This document shows, piece after piece, positions 39,973 to 43,669 of a DNA stretch of 64,000 nt. The stretch is from assembly GCA_041917695.1 (NCBI GenBank), contig JAYRXE010000037.1, positions 434,582 through 498,581 on the forward strand, in the 5' to 3' direction. The notes under the pieces were generated by a model, which did not search any database, was not told where the DNA came from, and saw only the letters and a program-made list of their open reading frames with translations. This DNA comes from Minisyncoccota bacterium. Lineage in GTDB: Bacteria > Patescibacteriota > Minisyncoccia > UBA6257 > GWB1-50-10. Made by a program: the position numbers and the translations under genes. How positions within the stretch are numbered: position 1 is the stretch's first letter; every line of letters begins with the position of its first letter.

Positions 39973-40878
39973 TTAGATATGCAGATACCGGCGGATGGCG
40001 ATCACCGAGGAGACAATGCCGAGACCAATGCCGAAAAGGACTTGATAGAAGAAGAGTGAGACGAAATGGCTCTTGAAATACCCCATGAGGGAAACTTCGG
40101 GAATGAAATTTGAAATATAGGGCGACGTGAAGCTCAGAATGGGGATGAAAAGCAGGAAGCTGGCGATTGCTCCGATGACGCCATAGAGGATGCCGTTCAC
40201 GATGTACGGACCGCGGATGAAATTATTTGAAGCGCCCACGAGCCGCATCACGGCGAGCTCCTCGCTGTTCGAAAAGATGGCGAGACGGATGGTGTTAAAG
40301 GTAATCATGATGGCGAGGAATGAGAGGAAAAAGGTAAGCACTGCTCCCCCGCTTTTGATGGTGTCCACAAAGGCGATGAGGCGGTCGATGACCAAATGGT
40401 TTTGCGCATAGGTAACCTTTTCAATCTGGTCCTTGAACGCGGGCTTATCGAGATAGGCGGCGATGGAGCTATAGTGGCGGGGATCCTGCGCCTTGATGTT
40501 CAAGGACGCGAGCAGAGGGTTCTCCTCGAGCTGGTCGAGCGTCTCGGTTATCACCGGATCGTTTTTGTGCTGTTCACGGAACACGACGAGTGCCTCGTCG
40601 CGGGAAATGTATTGCACGCTTTTCACCTCTTCCAATCCTTCAAGCGAACGTTTGATGTTCAAAATCGAATCTTCGGCGACATTCGTCTTAAAATAGACGC
40701 TCACGTCGATCTTGTCCTGGATTGCCGCGACGGCGCCATTCGAGAGGACATTGAAAATGATGAGCCCCTCGAAGACGACGAGCGCGAGGACCATGATGCT
40801 GATGGTCGAGGCCGAAAGCCATGCGTTCCGAAGGAAGCTGTTGATGCCGTATTTGAAAATGCGAAGGAGTTTTACCAT
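39973..40878 (-). CDS. ftsX: Cell division ABC-transporter permease FtsX
   Basis: Four TM helices and a large periplasmic loop, with ftsE immediately upstream. Confidence 0.9.
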   Translation of the reverse strand: MVKLLRIFKYGINSFLRNAWLSASTISIMVLALVVFEGLIIFNVLSNGAVAAIQDKIDVSVYFKTNVAEDSILNIKRSLEGLEEVKSVQYISRDEALVVFREQHKNDPVITETLDQLEENPLLASLNIKAQDPRHYSSIAAYLDKPAFKDQIEKVTYAQNHLVIDRLIAFVDTIKSGGAVLTFFLSFLAIMITFNTIRLAIFSNSEELAVMRLVGASNNFIRGPYIVNGILYGVIGAIASFLLFIPILSFTSPYISNFIPEVSLMGYFKSHFVSLFFYQVLFGIGLGIVSSVIAIRRYLHI

Positions 40879-40884
40879 AAAAAT

Positions 40885-41568
40885 TTAACCGATAATGAAA
40901 CGCCCGTTTTGTTCGTCCTTTACCAAGCTGCCATGCTCGAGCGTGATAACGCGCTCTCCCAGGGTATTCACGATTTCCTTGTCATGGGTCGCGAGGATGA
41001 CGGTACTTCCCAGTTCGTTGATTTTCGTGAGCAATTTGATGACTTCCCAGGTATTGAACGGATCGAGGTTCCCGGTGGGCTCGTCCGCGATGATGACGTC
41101 GGGACGGTTGATCATGGCGCGGGCAATGGCAACGCGCTGCTTCTCGCCGCCCGAAAGCTCCGTGGGGAAATTGTGCGCTTTGTCTTTCAGCCCCACCATT
41201 TCGAGTACCTGGGGCACGAGCTCGTTGATTTCCGTCTGGGTACGACCCTCCACCTCAAGCGCGAAAGCGACGTTCTCAAAAGCCGTCTTTTTGGGAAGAA
41301 GCCTGAAATCCTGGAAAATGACGCCGATATGCCGGCGGTATTCCGGCATTTCGCCGGACCGGAGCTTTGAAACCTCGTAGGGACCGAAGAAAATCTGGCC
41401 CTTGGTGGGTTTTTCCTCCCCGATGAGAAGCTTGATGATAGTCGATTTTCCCGCCCCTGAACGGCCGACGAGCGAGACGAATTCGTTCGGCTGTATCTTA
41501 AAGCTTACTTTGTCCAAGGCTACCGTATCGTGATTGTAAGTCTTCGTGACGTTCTGGAAGATAATCAT
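40885..41568 (-). CDS. ftsE: Cell division ATP-binding protein FtsE
   Basis: Walker A GRSGAGKST, signature LSGGEKQRV and Walker B VIIADEPTGNLD. Confidence 0.9.
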   Translation of the reverse strand: MIIFQNVTKTYNHDTVALDKVSFKIQPNEFVSLVGRSGAGKSTIIKLLIGEEKPTKGQIFFGPYEVSKLRSGEMPEYRRHIGVIFQDFRLLPKKTAFENVAFALEVEGRTQTEINELVPQVLEMVGLKDKAHNFPTELSGGEKQRVAIARAMINRPDVIIADEPTGNLDPFNTWEVIKLLTKINELGSTVILATHDKEIVNTLGERVITLEHGSLVKDEQNGRFIIG

Positions 41569-41638: not shown

Positions 41639-42343
41639 TTACGGCAACAAATCGAGATTCCCTTCCAGCACCTCTTCAACCTTCGTGATTTTCTCCCCCG
41701 TCTTGTGGTCTTTCACTTGCTTGTACGGATGGAGCACGTACGAACGGATCTCGTGGCCCCATTCGGGTTTCACCTTGGTCTTCAAATTTCTCACTTCGGT
41801 TTCATGCTTCTCCTTCATAAGCTCAATGAGCTTCGTTTTTAGGATTTCCATCGCCCGTTCGCGGTTTGCGCTTTGGCTCCGTTCGGCCTGCGAGAGAATG
41901 ACAACGCCGGTCGGCACGTGCACCACGCGCACAGCGGTCTCCACCTTGTTCACGTTCTGCCCGCCCGGACCGGATGAGCGCGTGAACTCGATTTTCAAAT
42001 CGCTTTCGGGAATCTGCAGTTTTGATGTCTCGACCGGCGGAAGCACCGGCAGGATTTCGACGAGGGCGAATGAGGTATGGCGGAGCTTTTTTGCGTCGAA
42101 GGGAGAGATGCGTACCAGCCGGTGGACGCCGTATTCCCCCCGGAGACGCTCATACGACCCCTCACCCTTAATCTCGAGGGTATTGTCGTTCACCGCCCGC
42201 CACTTCCACTTTTTCAGTTCGGTAAAACGCATATACATCTTGAGGAGCATCCCCGCCCAGTCTTTGGCATCGTCGCCACCCGCGCCGGCAAAAACCGTCA
42301 CATACGCGCCGTTCTTCTTTGCTTCGGGAGGCGTGAAACTCAT
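41639..42343 (-). CDS. prfB: Peptide chain release factor 2, naturally truncated (domains 2-4 only; no domain 1, no +1 frameshift site)
   Basis: The RF2-specific SPF tripeptide sits in RLVRISPFDAKKLRHTSF, and the GGQ motif in SSGPGGQNVNKVETAVRVVHVPTG. The first ATG (MSFTPPEAKKNGAYV) aligns to about residue 108 of E. coli RF2. The track's longer TTG-initiated extension runs through a terminator hairpin and is rejected. Confidence 0.8.
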   Translation of the reverse strand: MSFTPPEAKKNGAYVTVFAGAGGDDAKDWAGMLLKMYMRFTELKKWKWRAVNDNTLEIKGEGSYERLRGEYGVHRLVRISPFDAKKLRHTSFALVEILPVLPPVETSKLQIPESDLKIEFTRSSGPGGQNVNKVETAVRVVHVPTGVVILSQAERSQSANRERAMEILKTKLIELMKEKHETEVRNLKTKVKPEWGHEIRSYVLHPYKQVKDHKTGEKITKVEEVLEGNLDLLP

Positions 42344-42380
42344 GAGTCTCACTGTACCAGGAATGCGTAAAAAATAAAAA

Positions 42381-42410
42381 AGCCCACGAATGGGCTTAGA
42401 TGACAACGCA
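42381..42410 (-). terminator. Rho-independent terminator after the AT-rich ORF, immediately upstream of truncated prfB
   Basis: aagcccattcgtgggctt forms a hairpin, followed on the minus strand by ttttttatttttt. Confidence 0.55.
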
Positions 42411-42827
42411 CGCAAAATTGCCGAAAGCGCTTGGCATCAGAAGAATCCACAATGATGAATCCAGTTTATCTGCATGAGTGGCTAGGCAAAAATTTTTGAT
42501 ATCTTCCAGGACTGCATTCTTCCTTTCCTCAAGATTTATTTTTCTCTCGGGATAATCATGCGCGAGAACCAGGATTTCAATCACCTGGGAATGTACGTCC
42601 ATTTTTTTATGTTGCCGAGGCTTTACCTTGATATCTTCGGGCTTGAGGAAGCCTTCCTTTCCTTCTTCCGTTGAGACGGAAAGATGCTTGGAAAGCGTTA
42701 CGGGAAGAAAGCGTGCGAGTTCCTCTGCATCTCCCTTTGCTGATTCCTCGTAGAACATGAATACGTACGGCATTCGAACTCCTTTTTTAAATTTGAAATA
42801 CTGGCTATGTTTTATAGTAAATTCCAC
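42396..42827 (-). CDS. Hypothetical protein (AT-rich island)
   Basis: A 143-aa ORF with low-GC codon usage and its own terminator. No recognisable family, and no similarity to RF2 domain 1. Confidence 0.45.
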   Translation of the reverse strand: MEFTIKHSQYFKFKKGVRMPYVFMFYEESAKGDAEELARFLPVTLSKHLSVSTEEGKEGFLKPEDIKVKPRQHKKMDVHSQVIEILVLAHDYPERKINLEERKNAVLEDIKNFCLATHADKLDSSLWILLMPSAFGNFACVVI

Positions 42828-42862
42828 CAGGAGTCAATTATCCCTAAAAAGAAGAGCCGCAA

Positions 42863-43279
42863 CTATGCGGCTTTCAAAGTATATATCCTTACCTGCTTCA
42901 AATCCCACCAACGACCCTGCCCATTATCAAAAAGAATGCGAGGATCTTTGATCCCTAAATACCTCTCTAATTCCTCAAAGAACGCGGGAGATGAAATGAA
43001 GATGGATGAACTATTCTTATCAGAAAAAAGAGGGCTATCCGCATCTATCTTACCATCCCTGATTACATTAGGGTTCTCAAGCCATAAACCTAATCGATAG
43101 GAAAAAGAGCGCTCTTCTTTCTGGAAAGTAAAATAGAGTTCATCGACCTCGGGAAGAAGGACGGGAATCACTGTCTTAAACATGGACTGACTCATGCCTC
43201 CCCCTCCTCGAATAGAGGATAAAAAAACAGGACAATTATTGATGAGATAAATCACCGCTTCCTTGTGCGAAGTTATCAT
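42863..43279 (-). CDS. Hypothetical protein (AT-rich island)
   Basis: A 138-aa ORF with low-GC codon usage and its own terminator (agccgcaactatgcggct plus a minus-strand T-run at about 42851-42885). Confidence 0.45.
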   Translation of the reverse strand: MITSHKEAVIYLINNCPVFLSSIRGGGGMSQSMFKTVIPVLLPEVDELYFTFQKEERSFSYRLGLWLENPNVIRDGKIDADSPLFSDKNSSSIFISSPAFFEELERYLGIKDPRILFDNGQGRWWDLKQVRIYTLKAA

Positions 43280-43380
43280 TATGCTTCTCCAATAAGTTAT
43301 TAAATTTACTGGATATAAAATAAAATATTTATTAACTTATGTCAAAGTAATTATTCTCTACAATCGAACAATCCGCCGAA

Positions 43381-43596
43381 TGCGCCACTTCGGAATCTCA
43401 TGTCGCTTAAAATACCACTTCAGGAATCTCACAAAATTCCGTATCCACGGAATTTTTTTGAACCCCTCGGTTCCAATTATTCGCTTCGCGAATCCTACGT
43501 CTTGGAAAAACAAGTGTTTTTCCACCGCCTTTTCCCTTCGATTCCGAAATGCTACAGATGTAAAAATACCGTCATAAGACGGTATTTTTACATCTG
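43381..43596 (-). repeat. tRNA-associated structured repeat element, copy 2 (downstream of tRNA-Thr; diverged)
   Basis: A 17-bp perfect hairpin gatgtaaaaataccgtc-ataa-gacggtatttttacatc abuts the tRNA 3' end. It shares blocks with copy 1 (cggaatcgaag, cgaagcga, aaccgaggggttc). It ends in two degenerate copies of the tRNA-Thr 3' end (ccacttcaggaatctca and gccacttcggaatctcatgtcgc). Confidence 0.6.
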
Positions 43597-43669
43597 AGCC
43601 ACTTCCCGGAATCGAACCGGGGACCTTTGCTTTACGAAAGCACTGCTCTACCAGCTGAGCTAAAGTGGC
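43597..43669 (-). tRNA. tRNA-Thr (anticodon CGU)
   Basis: The minus strand reads GCCACTT-TA-GCTC-AGCTGGTA-GAGC-A-GTGCT-TTCGTAA-AGCAA-AGGTC-CCCGG-TTCGATT-CCGGG-AAGTGGC-T. Confidence 0.85.

What the first reader, a model, noticed from the sequence alone, without database searches (positions are those of the whole stretch)
41639..42410. Release factor 2 without domain 1 and without a programmed-frameshift site, abutting an AT-rich island
The prfB homologue is clearly RF2-type (SPF anticodon-mimic motif, GGQ motif, high similarity across domains 2-4). Its first usable ATG corresponds to about residue 108 of E. coli RF2. Only about 50 bp lie upstream before the stop codon and the rho-independent terminator of an unrelated AT-rich ORF.
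There is no CUU-UGA-C type frameshift site and no upstream frame encoding the N-terminal helical domain that contacts the L7/L12 stalk and RF3.
UGA is still used as a stop codon. For example, the programmed stops I checked are TAA or TAG, but long core genes have no in-frame TGA, so the genetic code appears standard.
Two possibilities:
- this lineage works with a domain-1-less RF2 as a natural minimal release factor;
- the island insertion next to tRNA-Thr deleted the 5' end of the gene, leaving a pseudogene or a neo-start.
Basis: partly seen in the sequence, partly recalled or inferred. Interest (0 to 1): 0.65.

Follow-up and report, generated by a model that had tools for sequence, protein, structure and literature searches.

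The report
Natural release factor 2 lacking domain 1
This ultra-small bacterium (Patescibacteria/CPR) and a whole clade of its relatives carry a conserved stop-codon release factor RF2 that has lost its N-terminal domain and its usual self-regulating frameshift; the neighbouring inserted DNA did not cause this loss.

Summary
Window 41639-42343 (-) encodes a 234-aa RF2 with SPF, RHTSF and GGQ motifs. It starts at the first strand of domain 2, roughly E. coli RF2 residue 116. It has no CTT-TGA site, and 52 nt upstream lie the stop codon and terminator of an AT-rich ORF.

The island-deletion idea is refuted.
- All 120 closest database homologues (68-78% identical, Patescibacteria) are equally short.
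- Eleven GTDB species genomes show the same gene, with an in-frame stop at most 27 codons upstream.
- In two relatives, tRNA-Thr(CGU) ends 0-17 nt before the start codon.

The short gene sits in the same tRNA-Thr - prfB - ftsE - ftsX block as full-length prfB in sister lineages. Most of those carry the canonical frameshift (53 of 69). The nearest full-length relatives have no frameshift and a trimmed domain 1, which suggests stepwise reduction.

Strain variants differ by 7 synonymous and 0 nonsynonymous changes. UGA is a real stop in this genome.

Most likely this is the lineage's working UGA/UAA terminator, an orthologue that acts without domain 1. I could not show that a second prfB and prfC are absent, nor examine RF1 in the same genome. 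I found no paper describing this. It is a new variant of a known kind.

The parts
41639..42343 (-). Short prfB coding sequence: 234 aa covering RF2 domains 2, 3 and 4 only. ATG start, TAA stop.
   Evidence: The AF2 model matches free RF2 structures 1gqe and 2ihr at TMq 0.80 and 0.75.
42098..42106 (-). SPF tripeptide (S80-P81-F82), the RF2 'anticodon' motif. It is followed by the RHTSF stretch.
   Evidence: Read from the sequence. S80 and P81 are invariant in 22 homologues, and F82 is F or Y.
41957..41965 (-). GGQ motif (G127-G128-Q129) of the peptidyl-tRNA hydrolysis domain.
   Evidence: Read from the sequence. Invariant in alignments A1 and A2.
42344..42369 (-). 26-nt leader between the terminator T-tract and the ATG. 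It has no strong Shine-Dalgarno sequence and no CTT-TGA frameshift site.
   Evidence: The leader is identical in strain variant L002.
42370..42397 (-). Terminator-like hairpin (AAGCCCATTCGTGGGCTT) plus T-tract, belonging to the upstream island ORF.
42385..43595 (.). AT-rich, strain-variable cassette region inserted into the ancestral tRNA-Thr-prfB spacer. It holds ORFs at 42396-42827 and 42863-43279 with no known family.
   Evidence: Composition. Strain variants L002-L006 lack 42385-42845 and carry 1.09 kb extra elsewhere. No Pfam, PHROG or PADLOC hits.
43596..43669 (-). tRNA-Thr(CGU), the conserved upstream neighbour of prfB in Patescibacteria.
   Evidence: The same tRNA lies upstream of both full-length and short prfB in many related loci.
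40885..41568 (-). ftsE (ABC ATPase), the conserved downstream neighbour.
   Evidence: It lies directly downstream in 10 of 10 short loci and 42 of 68 full-length loci.
39973..40878 (-). ftsX, the second gene of the conserved downstream pair.

Best explanation
The gene is the orthologue of prfB in a subclade of Patescibacteria (Paceibacteria-type CPR: Jorgensenbacteria, Brennerbacteria, some Colwellbacteria and unnamed relatives). In an ancestor of this clade it lost the whole N-terminal helical domain 1, the short C-terminal helix, and the programmed +1 frameshift site.

Inferred mechanism. What remains is the functional core of a class-I release factor.
- The domain 2/4 superdomain, with GAGG-DD, SPF and RHTSF, reads UGA and UAA in the 30S decoding centre.
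- Domain 3 swings its GGQ loop into the peptidyl-transferase centre to hydrolyse peptidyl-tRNA.
- Without domain 1, the factor cannot bridge to the L11 N-terminal domain or be recycled by RF3. It must bind and leave the ribosome unaided.
- Its synthesis is no longer autoregulated through UGA-dependent frameshifting.

The AT-rich island is a later, strain-variable insertion between tRNA-Thr and this already short gene.

Shown: the anatomy, the clade-wide conservation, the orthologous synteny, purifying selection, and use of UGA as a stop codon. Inferred: that it is the only RF2 in the cell, that it is catalytically active, and that RF3 is absent or irrelevant.
For: (1) Core RF2 identity.
- prfB profile 290 bits against prfA 185 bits.
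- Best PDB sequence matches are RF2, E 1e-54.
- The AF2 model superposes on free RF2 structures 1gqe and 2ihr.
- SPF, RHTSF and GGQ are invariant in alignment A1.

(2) Not specific to this locus.
- All 120 best database hits are 220-278 aa with the same N-terminus. The longer calls checked (P0027, P0057) run over the upstream tRNA.
- 11 GTDB species loci have an in-frame stop at most 27 codons upstream of the start and no domain-1-like coding in any upstream frame.

(3) Orthology by synteny.
- tRNA-Thr(cgt) lies upstream of both short and full-length genes.
- ftsE-ftsX lies directly downstream in 10 of 10 short and 42 of 68 full-length loci.

(4) Derived state.
- The closest 50%-identity representative is a full-length 347-aa Wolfebacteria RF2 at 59% identity.
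- 53 of 69 full-length relatives carry an in-frame CTT TGA at about codon 23; 0 of 11 short genes do.
- In an NJ tree the short genes group with L026, L031, L021 and L023. L026 and L031 are full-length without a frameshift and with a trimmed domain 1 of about 90-100 aa.

(5) Selection. There are 7 synonymous and 0 nonsynonymous differences against strain variants. Mean column identity is 64% across divergent members.

(6) Need for RF2. TGA terminates FtsW, RsmH and an OmdA-like gene in the window.

(7) Plausibility from published work. Domain 1 is not required for codon recognition or peptide release in vitro, and is needed to stimulate nucleotide exchange on RF3. Truncated RF1 functions in vivo. 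prfC is non-essential and missing from small genomes. These points come from Mora et al. 2003 as summarised in PMC1586002. Domain 1 contacts the L11 N-terminal domain and RF3 domain 3 (PMC3677378).
Against: - I could not scan any whole genome of the clade. A second, full-length prfB elsewhere, and the presence or absence of prfC, remain untested. No second RF gene lies within 10 kb in any of the 86 RF2 loci or in the 64-kb window, but that covers only a few percent of each genome.
- RF1 could be examined only in Paceibacterota genomes not linked to a short RF2. There it is about 317 aa and keeps a trimmed domain 1.
- NJ support for a single short clade is weak: 41% for short plus L026, and strict monophyly in 20% of 200 bootstraps.
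- In this window the gene lies 26 nt behind a terminator T-tract with no convincing promoter or Shine-Dalgarno sequence, so its expression here is unproven.
- There is no biochemical evidence for this protein.
Confidence: 0.75

Rival explanations
1. Truncated paralogue: the genome also has a canonical full-length prfB elsewhere. On this view the short protein is an accessory factor, for example a back-up or specialised terminator.
For: Whole genomes could not be searched, so a second copy is not excluded. Accessory RF homologues lacking domain 1 do exist, such as PrfH (PMC1586002).
Against: - The short gene occupies the exact tRNA-Thr - prfB - ftsE - ftsX slot held by the full-length gene in sister lineages.
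- It groups with their orthologues in the tree.
- No genome gave two RF2 loci among the 80 GTDB loci kept.
- It keeps the canonical SPF decoding residues.
Confidence: 0.1
2. Pseudogene or neo-start created when the AT-rich island was inserted next to tRNA-Thr and deleted the 5' end of prfB.
For: The island does lie between tRNA-Thr and the gene, and its terminator sits 26 nt from the ATG.
Against: - The same short gene occurs in relatives without any island; the tRNA ends 0-17 nt before the start in L086 and L001.
- 120 equally short homologues exist.
- Strain variants with different island content encode the identical protein, with only synonymous differences.
Confidence: 0.02
3. Specialised ribosome-rescue factor of the PrfH or ArfB type, rather than a stop-codon terminator.
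For: It lacks domain 1, as PrfH does. There are weak sub-threshold matches to PrfH (82 bits against a 166.65 cutoff) and to ArfB (59 bits against 100).
Against: - The PrfH and ArfB scores are far below both their cutoffs and the prfB score.
- SPF and RHTSF are retained, whereas PrfH has altered decoding residues (PMC1586002).
- No rtcB neighbour was found.
- Synteny is orthologous with prfB.
Confidence: 0.05
4. Gene-calling or assembly artefact: domain 1 is really encoded upstream but is hidden by the programmed frameshift, a sequencing error or a chimeric join.
For: Apparent 'short RF2' entries of this artefactual type may exist in databases, for example the Chloroflexota cluster of P0164 with lengths 163-314 aa and internal Met starts. 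I did not check those at DNA level.
Against: - The upstream DNA was read directly. It shows a stop codon, terminator or tRNA immediately upstream in many independent assemblies from JGI, NCBI, ENA and Logan.
- tblastn with four domain-1 sequences against all upstream gaps found nothing better than E = 0.1.
Confidence: 0.02

Closest known systems
Canonical bacterial RF2 (PrfB; TIGR00020; PDB 1gqe, 2ihr, 4v5e)
   Same: Domains 2, 3 and 4 are present. So are the SPF motif, the RHTSF stretch, GGQ and the switch-loop region (PEWGHEIRSYV). Best sequence and fold matches are to RF2. In Patescibacteria it occupies the same tRNA-Thr-prfB-ftsEX locus.
   Different: - About 110 N-terminal residues (domain 1) are absent.
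- The last C-terminal helix (FIEAE...) is absent.
- A 10-residue loop in domain 2 is shorter; this is shared with the closest full-length CPR relatives.
- There is no programmed +1 frameshift.
- It scores below the TIGR00020 cutoff.
Full-length Paceibacteria RF2 without a frameshift (L026, 316 aa; L031, about 322 aa from its ATG)
   Same: These are the closest full-length relatives in the tree. They share the locus, the shortened domain-2 loop and the NVNKVETAVR signature, and they have already lost the CTT TGA site.
   Different: They still have a trimmed domain 1 of about 90-100 aa and the C-terminal FIEAEL helix.
E. coli RF1/RF2 with domain 1 deleted in the laboratory (Mora et al. 2003, as cited in PMC1586002)
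   Same: The architecture is the same (domains 2-4). The reported properties are retained codon specificity and in-vitro release activity, with loss of the RF3 interaction. These are what I infer for this protein.
   Different: Those are engineered proteins in an organism that has RF3. This is a natural, conserved, clade-wide form.
PrfH / RFH (TIGR03072; PDB 7sa4, 9mor)
   Same: A natural class-I RF homologue lacking domain 1, with GGQ retained.
   Different: PrfH has altered decoding residues, pairs with RtcB2 and acts on damaged ribosomes. Here the score is 82 bits against a 166.65 cutoff, SPF is intact and there is no rtcB neighbour.
ArfB / ICT1 / mtRF-R (GGQ-domain rescue factors)
   Same: Reduced class-I RF relatives that act without domain 1.
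   Different: They also lack the codon-reading domains 2/4 and use a basic C-terminal tail instead. This protein keeps the full decoding superdomain.

Membership tests
Bacterial RF2 (PrfB) | RF-1 (GGQ) peptidyl-tRNA hydrolase domain | tested here: met
   PF00472 matched at positions 3-116 of 116, E 1e-37. GGQ is invariant.
Bacterial RF2 (PrfB) | RF2-type decoding elements: the SPF tripeptide and the following RHTSF stretch | tested here: met
   RISPFD and LRHTSFA are present. S, P and RHTSF are invariant in 22 homologues.
Bacterial RF2 (PrfB) | Scores higher on the RF2 model than on the RF1 model | tested here: met
   TIGR00020 scores 290 bits against 185 bits for TIGR00019. The PDB RF2 match is E 1e-54 against 7e-38 for RF1.
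Bacterial RF2 (PrfB) | Reaches the curated full-length cutoff of TIGR00020 | tested here: not met
   290 bits against a 370 cutoff. Only profile positions 112-345 of 353 are matched. The shortfall comes from the missing N-terminus.
Bacterial RF2 (PrfB) | N-terminal helical domain 1 (first half of the Pfam PCRF domain) | tested here: not met
   PCRF is matched only from position 96 of 194. No domain-1 coding is found upstream in any frame.
Bacterial RF2 (PrfB) | Programmed +1 frameshift (CUU UGA) early in the gene. This is common but not universal in prfB. | tested here: not met
   No in-frame CTTTGA in the window or in 11 short relatives. It is present in 53 of 69 full-length relatives.
Bacterial RF2 (PrfB) | Orthologous genomic position relative to the prfB of related organisms | tested here: met
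   The tRNA-Thr(cgt) - prfB - ftsE - ftsX block is shared with full-length genes.
Bacterial RF2 (PrfB) | UGA/UAA-dependent peptide release on the ribosome | not testable with these tools
   This needs biochemistry. Indirect evidence: UGA is used as a stop in the window.
PrfH (RFH) | Reaches the TIGR03072 cutoff, with an altered decoding motif | tested here: not met
   82 bits against a 166.65 cutoff. The canonical SPF is retained.
PrfH (RFH) | Adjacent upstream rtcB2 gene | tested here: not met
   The upstream neighbours are a tRNA-Thr or island ORFs with no Pfam family.
ArfB | GGQ domain plus a basic C-terminal tail, with no decoding domains; reaches the NF006718 cutoff | tested here: not met
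   59 bits against a 100 cutoff, and only residues 106-140 match. Domains 2/4 are present.

The most novel reading that the evidence does not exclude
A sizeable subclade of Patescibacteria terminates translation at UGA/UAA with a naturally minimal RF2 made of domains 2-4 only. This factor cannot touch the L11/stalk region or RF3, and it has lost the widespread autoregulatory frameshift.

The reduction looks stepwise in living sister lineages: frameshift plus full domain 1, then no frameshift plus a trimmed domain 1, then no domain 1 and no C-terminal helix. RF1 in related genomes keeps its domain 1.

If this is the sole RF2, it is a natural demonstration that domain 1 and RF3-type recycling are dispensable for cellular life. 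It also gives a ready-made minimal factor for structural and synthetic-biology work.
Probability: 0.6. Interest if true: 0.65.

Novelty: new variant of a known kind. Interest (0 to 1): 0.55.

Why it matters
Domain 1 of class-I release factors is conserved in canonical RF1 and RF2. It mediates the L11 and RF3 contacts, and the prfB frameshift is a textbook case of autoregulation. Laboratory truncations showed that domain 1 is dispensable in vitro. A conserved natural lineage living without it would show that it is dispensable in vivo.

If confirmed, several things follow.
- Termination in these ultra-small bacteria would be independent of RF3.
- There would be an asymmetry between RF1 and RF2 in how each uses domain 1.
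- A stepwise evolutionary series would be available for study.
- A compact RF2 would be available for cryo-EM and for minimal-translation systems.

It also matters for annotation. These proteins are labelled 'release factor-like' or 'PCRF domain-containing' and could be mistaken for fragments or pseudogenes. Conversely, apparent short RF2 entries elsewhere in the databases may be gene-calling artefacts of the frameshift.

Tried and rejected
(1) Island-caused truncation. Rejected on comparative evidence.

(2) Hidden domain 1 upstream or in another frame. tblastn with four domain-1 sequences against all upstream gaps and the island found nothing better than E = 0.1.

(3) A second RF gene nearby. 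tblastn of the short RF2 and of P0121 against the window and the RF2 loci found none.

(4) An apparent family of 90-163-aa 'RF1' proteins. This looked like a split or frameshifted RF1. It turned out to be an artefact of the short query favouring fragments, and of scaffold N-gaps inside the genes (10 N in L090, 69 N in L089). The intact Paceibacterota RF1 is about 317 aa.

(5) Linking RF1 to a genome with short RF2 by matching contig lengths. No match. rpmE, rpsB and tsf, the RF1 neighbours, are not in the window.

(6) L066 first looked like a short form. It is a full-length gene with the canonical CTT TGA C site and an insertion in domain 1.

(7) Other 'short RF2' representatives (P0164, P0190, P0176, P0220 and others). 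These look like internal-start calls or error-laden assemblies, not real parallels. I did not check them at DNA level.

(8) The Biopython bootstrap timed out. I replaced it with a numpy NJ.

(9) Island ORFs. No Pfam, PHROG or PADLOC family. Rfam found nothing in the leader.

(10) Literature. Searches combining release factor, prfB, prfC or RF3 with Patescibacteria, CPR or Parcubacteria found no description of this form. Mora et al. 2003 is not held in the library.

Full report
THE OBSERVATION

The gene lies on the minus strand at 41639-42343. It has an ATG start, a TAA stop and encodes 234 aa. The mechanical ORF opens at a TTG at 42415. That extension overlaps the stop codon and terminator of the upstream ORF, and every homologue begins at the position of the ATG.

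Pfam finds a complete RF-1 (GGQ) domain but only positions 96-194 of the 194-position PCRF domain. The NCBIfam prfB model matches positions 112-345 of 353. It scores 290 bits, higher than prfA at 185 bits but below the 370-bit cutoff. Alignment to solved structures puts residue 12 at E. coli RF2 residue 127 and residue 6 at Thermus RF2 residue 110. The protein therefore starts at the first strand of domain 2, about E. coli residue 116.

SPF (42098-42106), RHTSF and GGQ (41957-41965) are all present. An AlphaFold model (mean pLDDT 75.8) superposes on free RF2 structures 1gqe and 2ihr at TM 0.80 and 0.75, normalised to the query length.

The TAA of an unrelated ORF lies 52 nt upstream of the ATG. 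A hairpin and T-tract follow at 42397-42370. There is no in-frame CTT TGA. Nothing resembling domain 1 is encoded in any upstream frame.

The flanking 1.2 kb is AT-rich, with GC 0.37-0.47 against about 0.55. It ends at tRNA-Thr(CGU), 43596-43669.

UGA is a genuine stop in this genome. FtsW, RsmH and an OmdA-like gene end in TGA with their Pfam profiles matched to the end. Long genes contain no in-frame TGA.

IS THE TRUNCATION LOCAL?

No. All 120 best hits in a 5.8-billion-protein database are 220-278 aa. They are 67-78% identical to the query and come from Patescibacteria, including Jorgensenbacteria and Brennerbacteria. Their sources label them 'peptide chain release factor-like protein', 'PCRF domain-containing protein' or 'peptide chain release factor 2'.

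These homologues share one N-terminus, M-x-x-N-x-N-[IV]-A-x-[IV]-S-V-L-A-G-A-G-G-D-D-A-K-D-W. The longer calls I checked (P0027, P0057) are gene calls that run over an upstream tRNA.

In relative L001 (GCA_021814165.1), tRNA-Thr(CGU) ends 17 nt before the start codon. In L086 the tRNA ends immediately before the start codon. Eleven species-representative genomes in GTDB have the short gene. In each, an in-frame stop lies no more than 27 codons upstream of the start.

Metagenomic strain variants of the window's own population (L002-L006, about 99% identical) have different island content. They lack window 42385-42845 and carry 1.09 kb of other sequence. Yet they encode the identical RF2 protein. 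The island is a later, variable insertion into the tRNA-Thr-prfB spacer, and it did not truncate the gene.

IS IT THE ORTHOLOGUE OF prfB?

The exhaustive search of 50%-identity cluster representatives returned a full-length RF2 as the closest representative. This is P0121, 347 aa, from Wolfebacteria, at 59% identity and with a complete PCRF domain.

I scanned GTDB genomes with an alignment headed by P0121 and obtained 80 loci.
- 69 are full-length.
- 53 of those 69 carry CTT TGA in the right frame at about codon 23. This count includes L066, once its site was found further upstream.
- None of the 11 short genes has the site.

Synteny supports orthology. tRNA-Thr(CGU) lies upstream of both forms. 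ftsE-ftsX lies directly downstream in 10 of 10 short loci and 42 of 68 full-length loci. The short gene therefore sits in the ancestral prfB slot.

In a neighbour-joining tree of the shared 219 columns, the short genes group together with four full-length genes: L026, L031, L021 and L023. Support is weak: 41% for short plus L026, and 52% with all four. L021 and L023 have the frameshift site. L026 and L031 lack it and have a trimmed domain 1 of about 90-100 aa.

The short proteins also lack the C-terminal FIEAE helix that L026 and L031 retain. Three short members (L029, L034, L038) branch slightly apart, and L034 and L038 still begin with the GKYD linker.

The pattern suggests stepwise reduction: first the frameshift was lost, then domain 1 was trimmed, then domain 1 and the C-terminal helix were lost entirely. 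Whether the final loss happened once or twice is not resolved.

IS IT FUNCTIONAL?

Functional residues are invariant across divergent members: GAGG, S-P, RHTSF, GPGGQ and PEWGHEIRSYVLHPYKQVK. Between the window and its strain variants the coding sequence differs at 5-7 sites. All are third-position and synonymous. The genome needs a UGA reader.

Published work makes activity plausible. [quoted passage not shown] It is needed to stimulate nucleotide exchange on RF3. Truncated RF1 functions in vivo. prfC is non-essential and is absent from small genomes. These points are from Mora et al. 2003 and related work as summarised in PMC1586002. Domain 1 bridges the L11 N-terminal domain and RF3 domain 3 on the ribosome (PMC3677378).

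The best-supported mechanism is therefore ordinary RF2 chemistry by domains 2-4, without stalk or RF3 contacts and without frameshift autoregulation.

WHAT I COULD NOT SHOW

No tool let me scan a whole genome. The absence of a second prfB and of prfC is inferred, not tested. No second RF gene lies in the 64-kb window or within 10 kb of RF2 in any fetched RF2 locus.

I could characterise RF1 only in Paceibacterota genomes not linked to a short RF2. There it lies in an rpmE-prfA-rpsB-tsf block, is about 317 aa and keeps a trimmed domain 1.

An initial impression of 90-163-aa RF1 proteins was an artefact of a short query and of scaffold N-gaps.

Expression in this strain is uncertain. Only 26 nt separate the terminator T-tract from the ATG, and I found no convincing promoter or Shine-Dalgarno sequence. 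Several relatives have a TATAAT-like box about 20 nt upstream of the start, which suggests short-leader transcripts. L001 and L086 appear to be co-transcribed with the tRNA.

COMPARISON WITH KNOWN SYSTEMS AND NOVELTY

The protein works like RF2 and is its orthologue. It fails three features of the canonical family: domain 1, the frameshift, and the full-length model cutoff.

It is not PrfH. It scores 82 bits against a 166.65 cutoff, SPF is intact and there is no rtcB neighbour. It is not ArfB either.

Its closest functional analogue is the laboratory domain-1 deletion of E. coli RF1/RF2. I found no paper describing a natural, clade-wide domain-1-less RF2 in Patescibacteria. The sequences are in public databases under vague names.

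I rate it a new variant of a known kind with moderate interest (0.55). A termination specialist would find it noteworthy rather than astonishing, because dispensability in vitro was already known. Even so, a conserved natural case with a visible evolutionary series, and the loss of a textbook autoregulatory frameshift, is worth following up.

Noticed in passing
window 42385-43595; L002-L006: The AT-rich spacer between tRNA-Thr and prfB varies between strains. Variants about 99% identical elsewhere lack 42385-42845 (the 143-aa ORF and its terminator) and carry 1.09 kb extra (50-aa and 179-aa ORFs) between window positions 43325 and 43388. The junctions fall in terminator T-tracts. The ORFs have no Pfam, PHROG or PADLOC family. 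In other short-clade genomes this spacer ranges from 0-17 nt to 1.2 kb, so it looks like a recurrent insertion hot spot.
   Followed up: partly
P0128 (286 aa, 1.5-kb ENA contig): This protein has an RF2-like N-terminal and GGQ part joined to an RF1-like C-terminus (DRSEKIRTYN...RVTDHR). It is either RF1/RF2 gene conversion of the kind described in PMC4530459 or a chimeric assembly.
   Followed up: no
L066 9577-10774 (Parcubacteria GW2011_GWA2_42_14): A full-length RF2 with the canonical CTT TGA C frameshift site and an insertion of roughly 40 aa inside domain 1. It first looked like a short form.
   Followed up: partly
L089 4477-5489; L090 4493-5474: Paceibacterota RF1 is about 317 aa with a trimmed domain 1. 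It lies in a conserved rpmE-prfA-rpsB-tsf block and is named only 'PCRF domain-containing protein' by NCBI. Both example genes are interrupted by scaffold N-gaps that split the gene calls.
   Followed up: partly
L001 9414-9756 (-): A divergent bacterial RNase P RNA lies next to the tRNA-Thr-prfB block. It covers the full class A model at E 3e-12 but scores only 43.6 bits against a gathering score of 100, so it would be missed by standard annotation.
   Followed up: no
window 41639-42343 vs L002-L006: All 5-7 differences in prfB between the strain variants are synonymous. They are confined to the first 210 nt of the coding sequence, next to the variable island. This suggests a recombination tract ending inside the gene.
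   Followed up: no
P0164, P0190, P0176, P0220, P0255 (one search hits): Database 'short RF2' entries from Chloroflexota and from unnamed sources begin at internal Met residues or have Arg-rich frameshifted tails. Cluster members vary from 163 to 314 aa. They look like gene-calling or assembly artefacts of frameshift-containing prfB, which is a caveat for any length-based survey. I did not check them at DNA level.
   Followed up: partly
L001 788-1192: A genome of the short-RF2 clade still encodes L11 with both its N- and C-terminal domains. The usual ribosomal docking site for RF domain 1 is therefore retained even though RF2 no longer has that domain.
   Followed up: no
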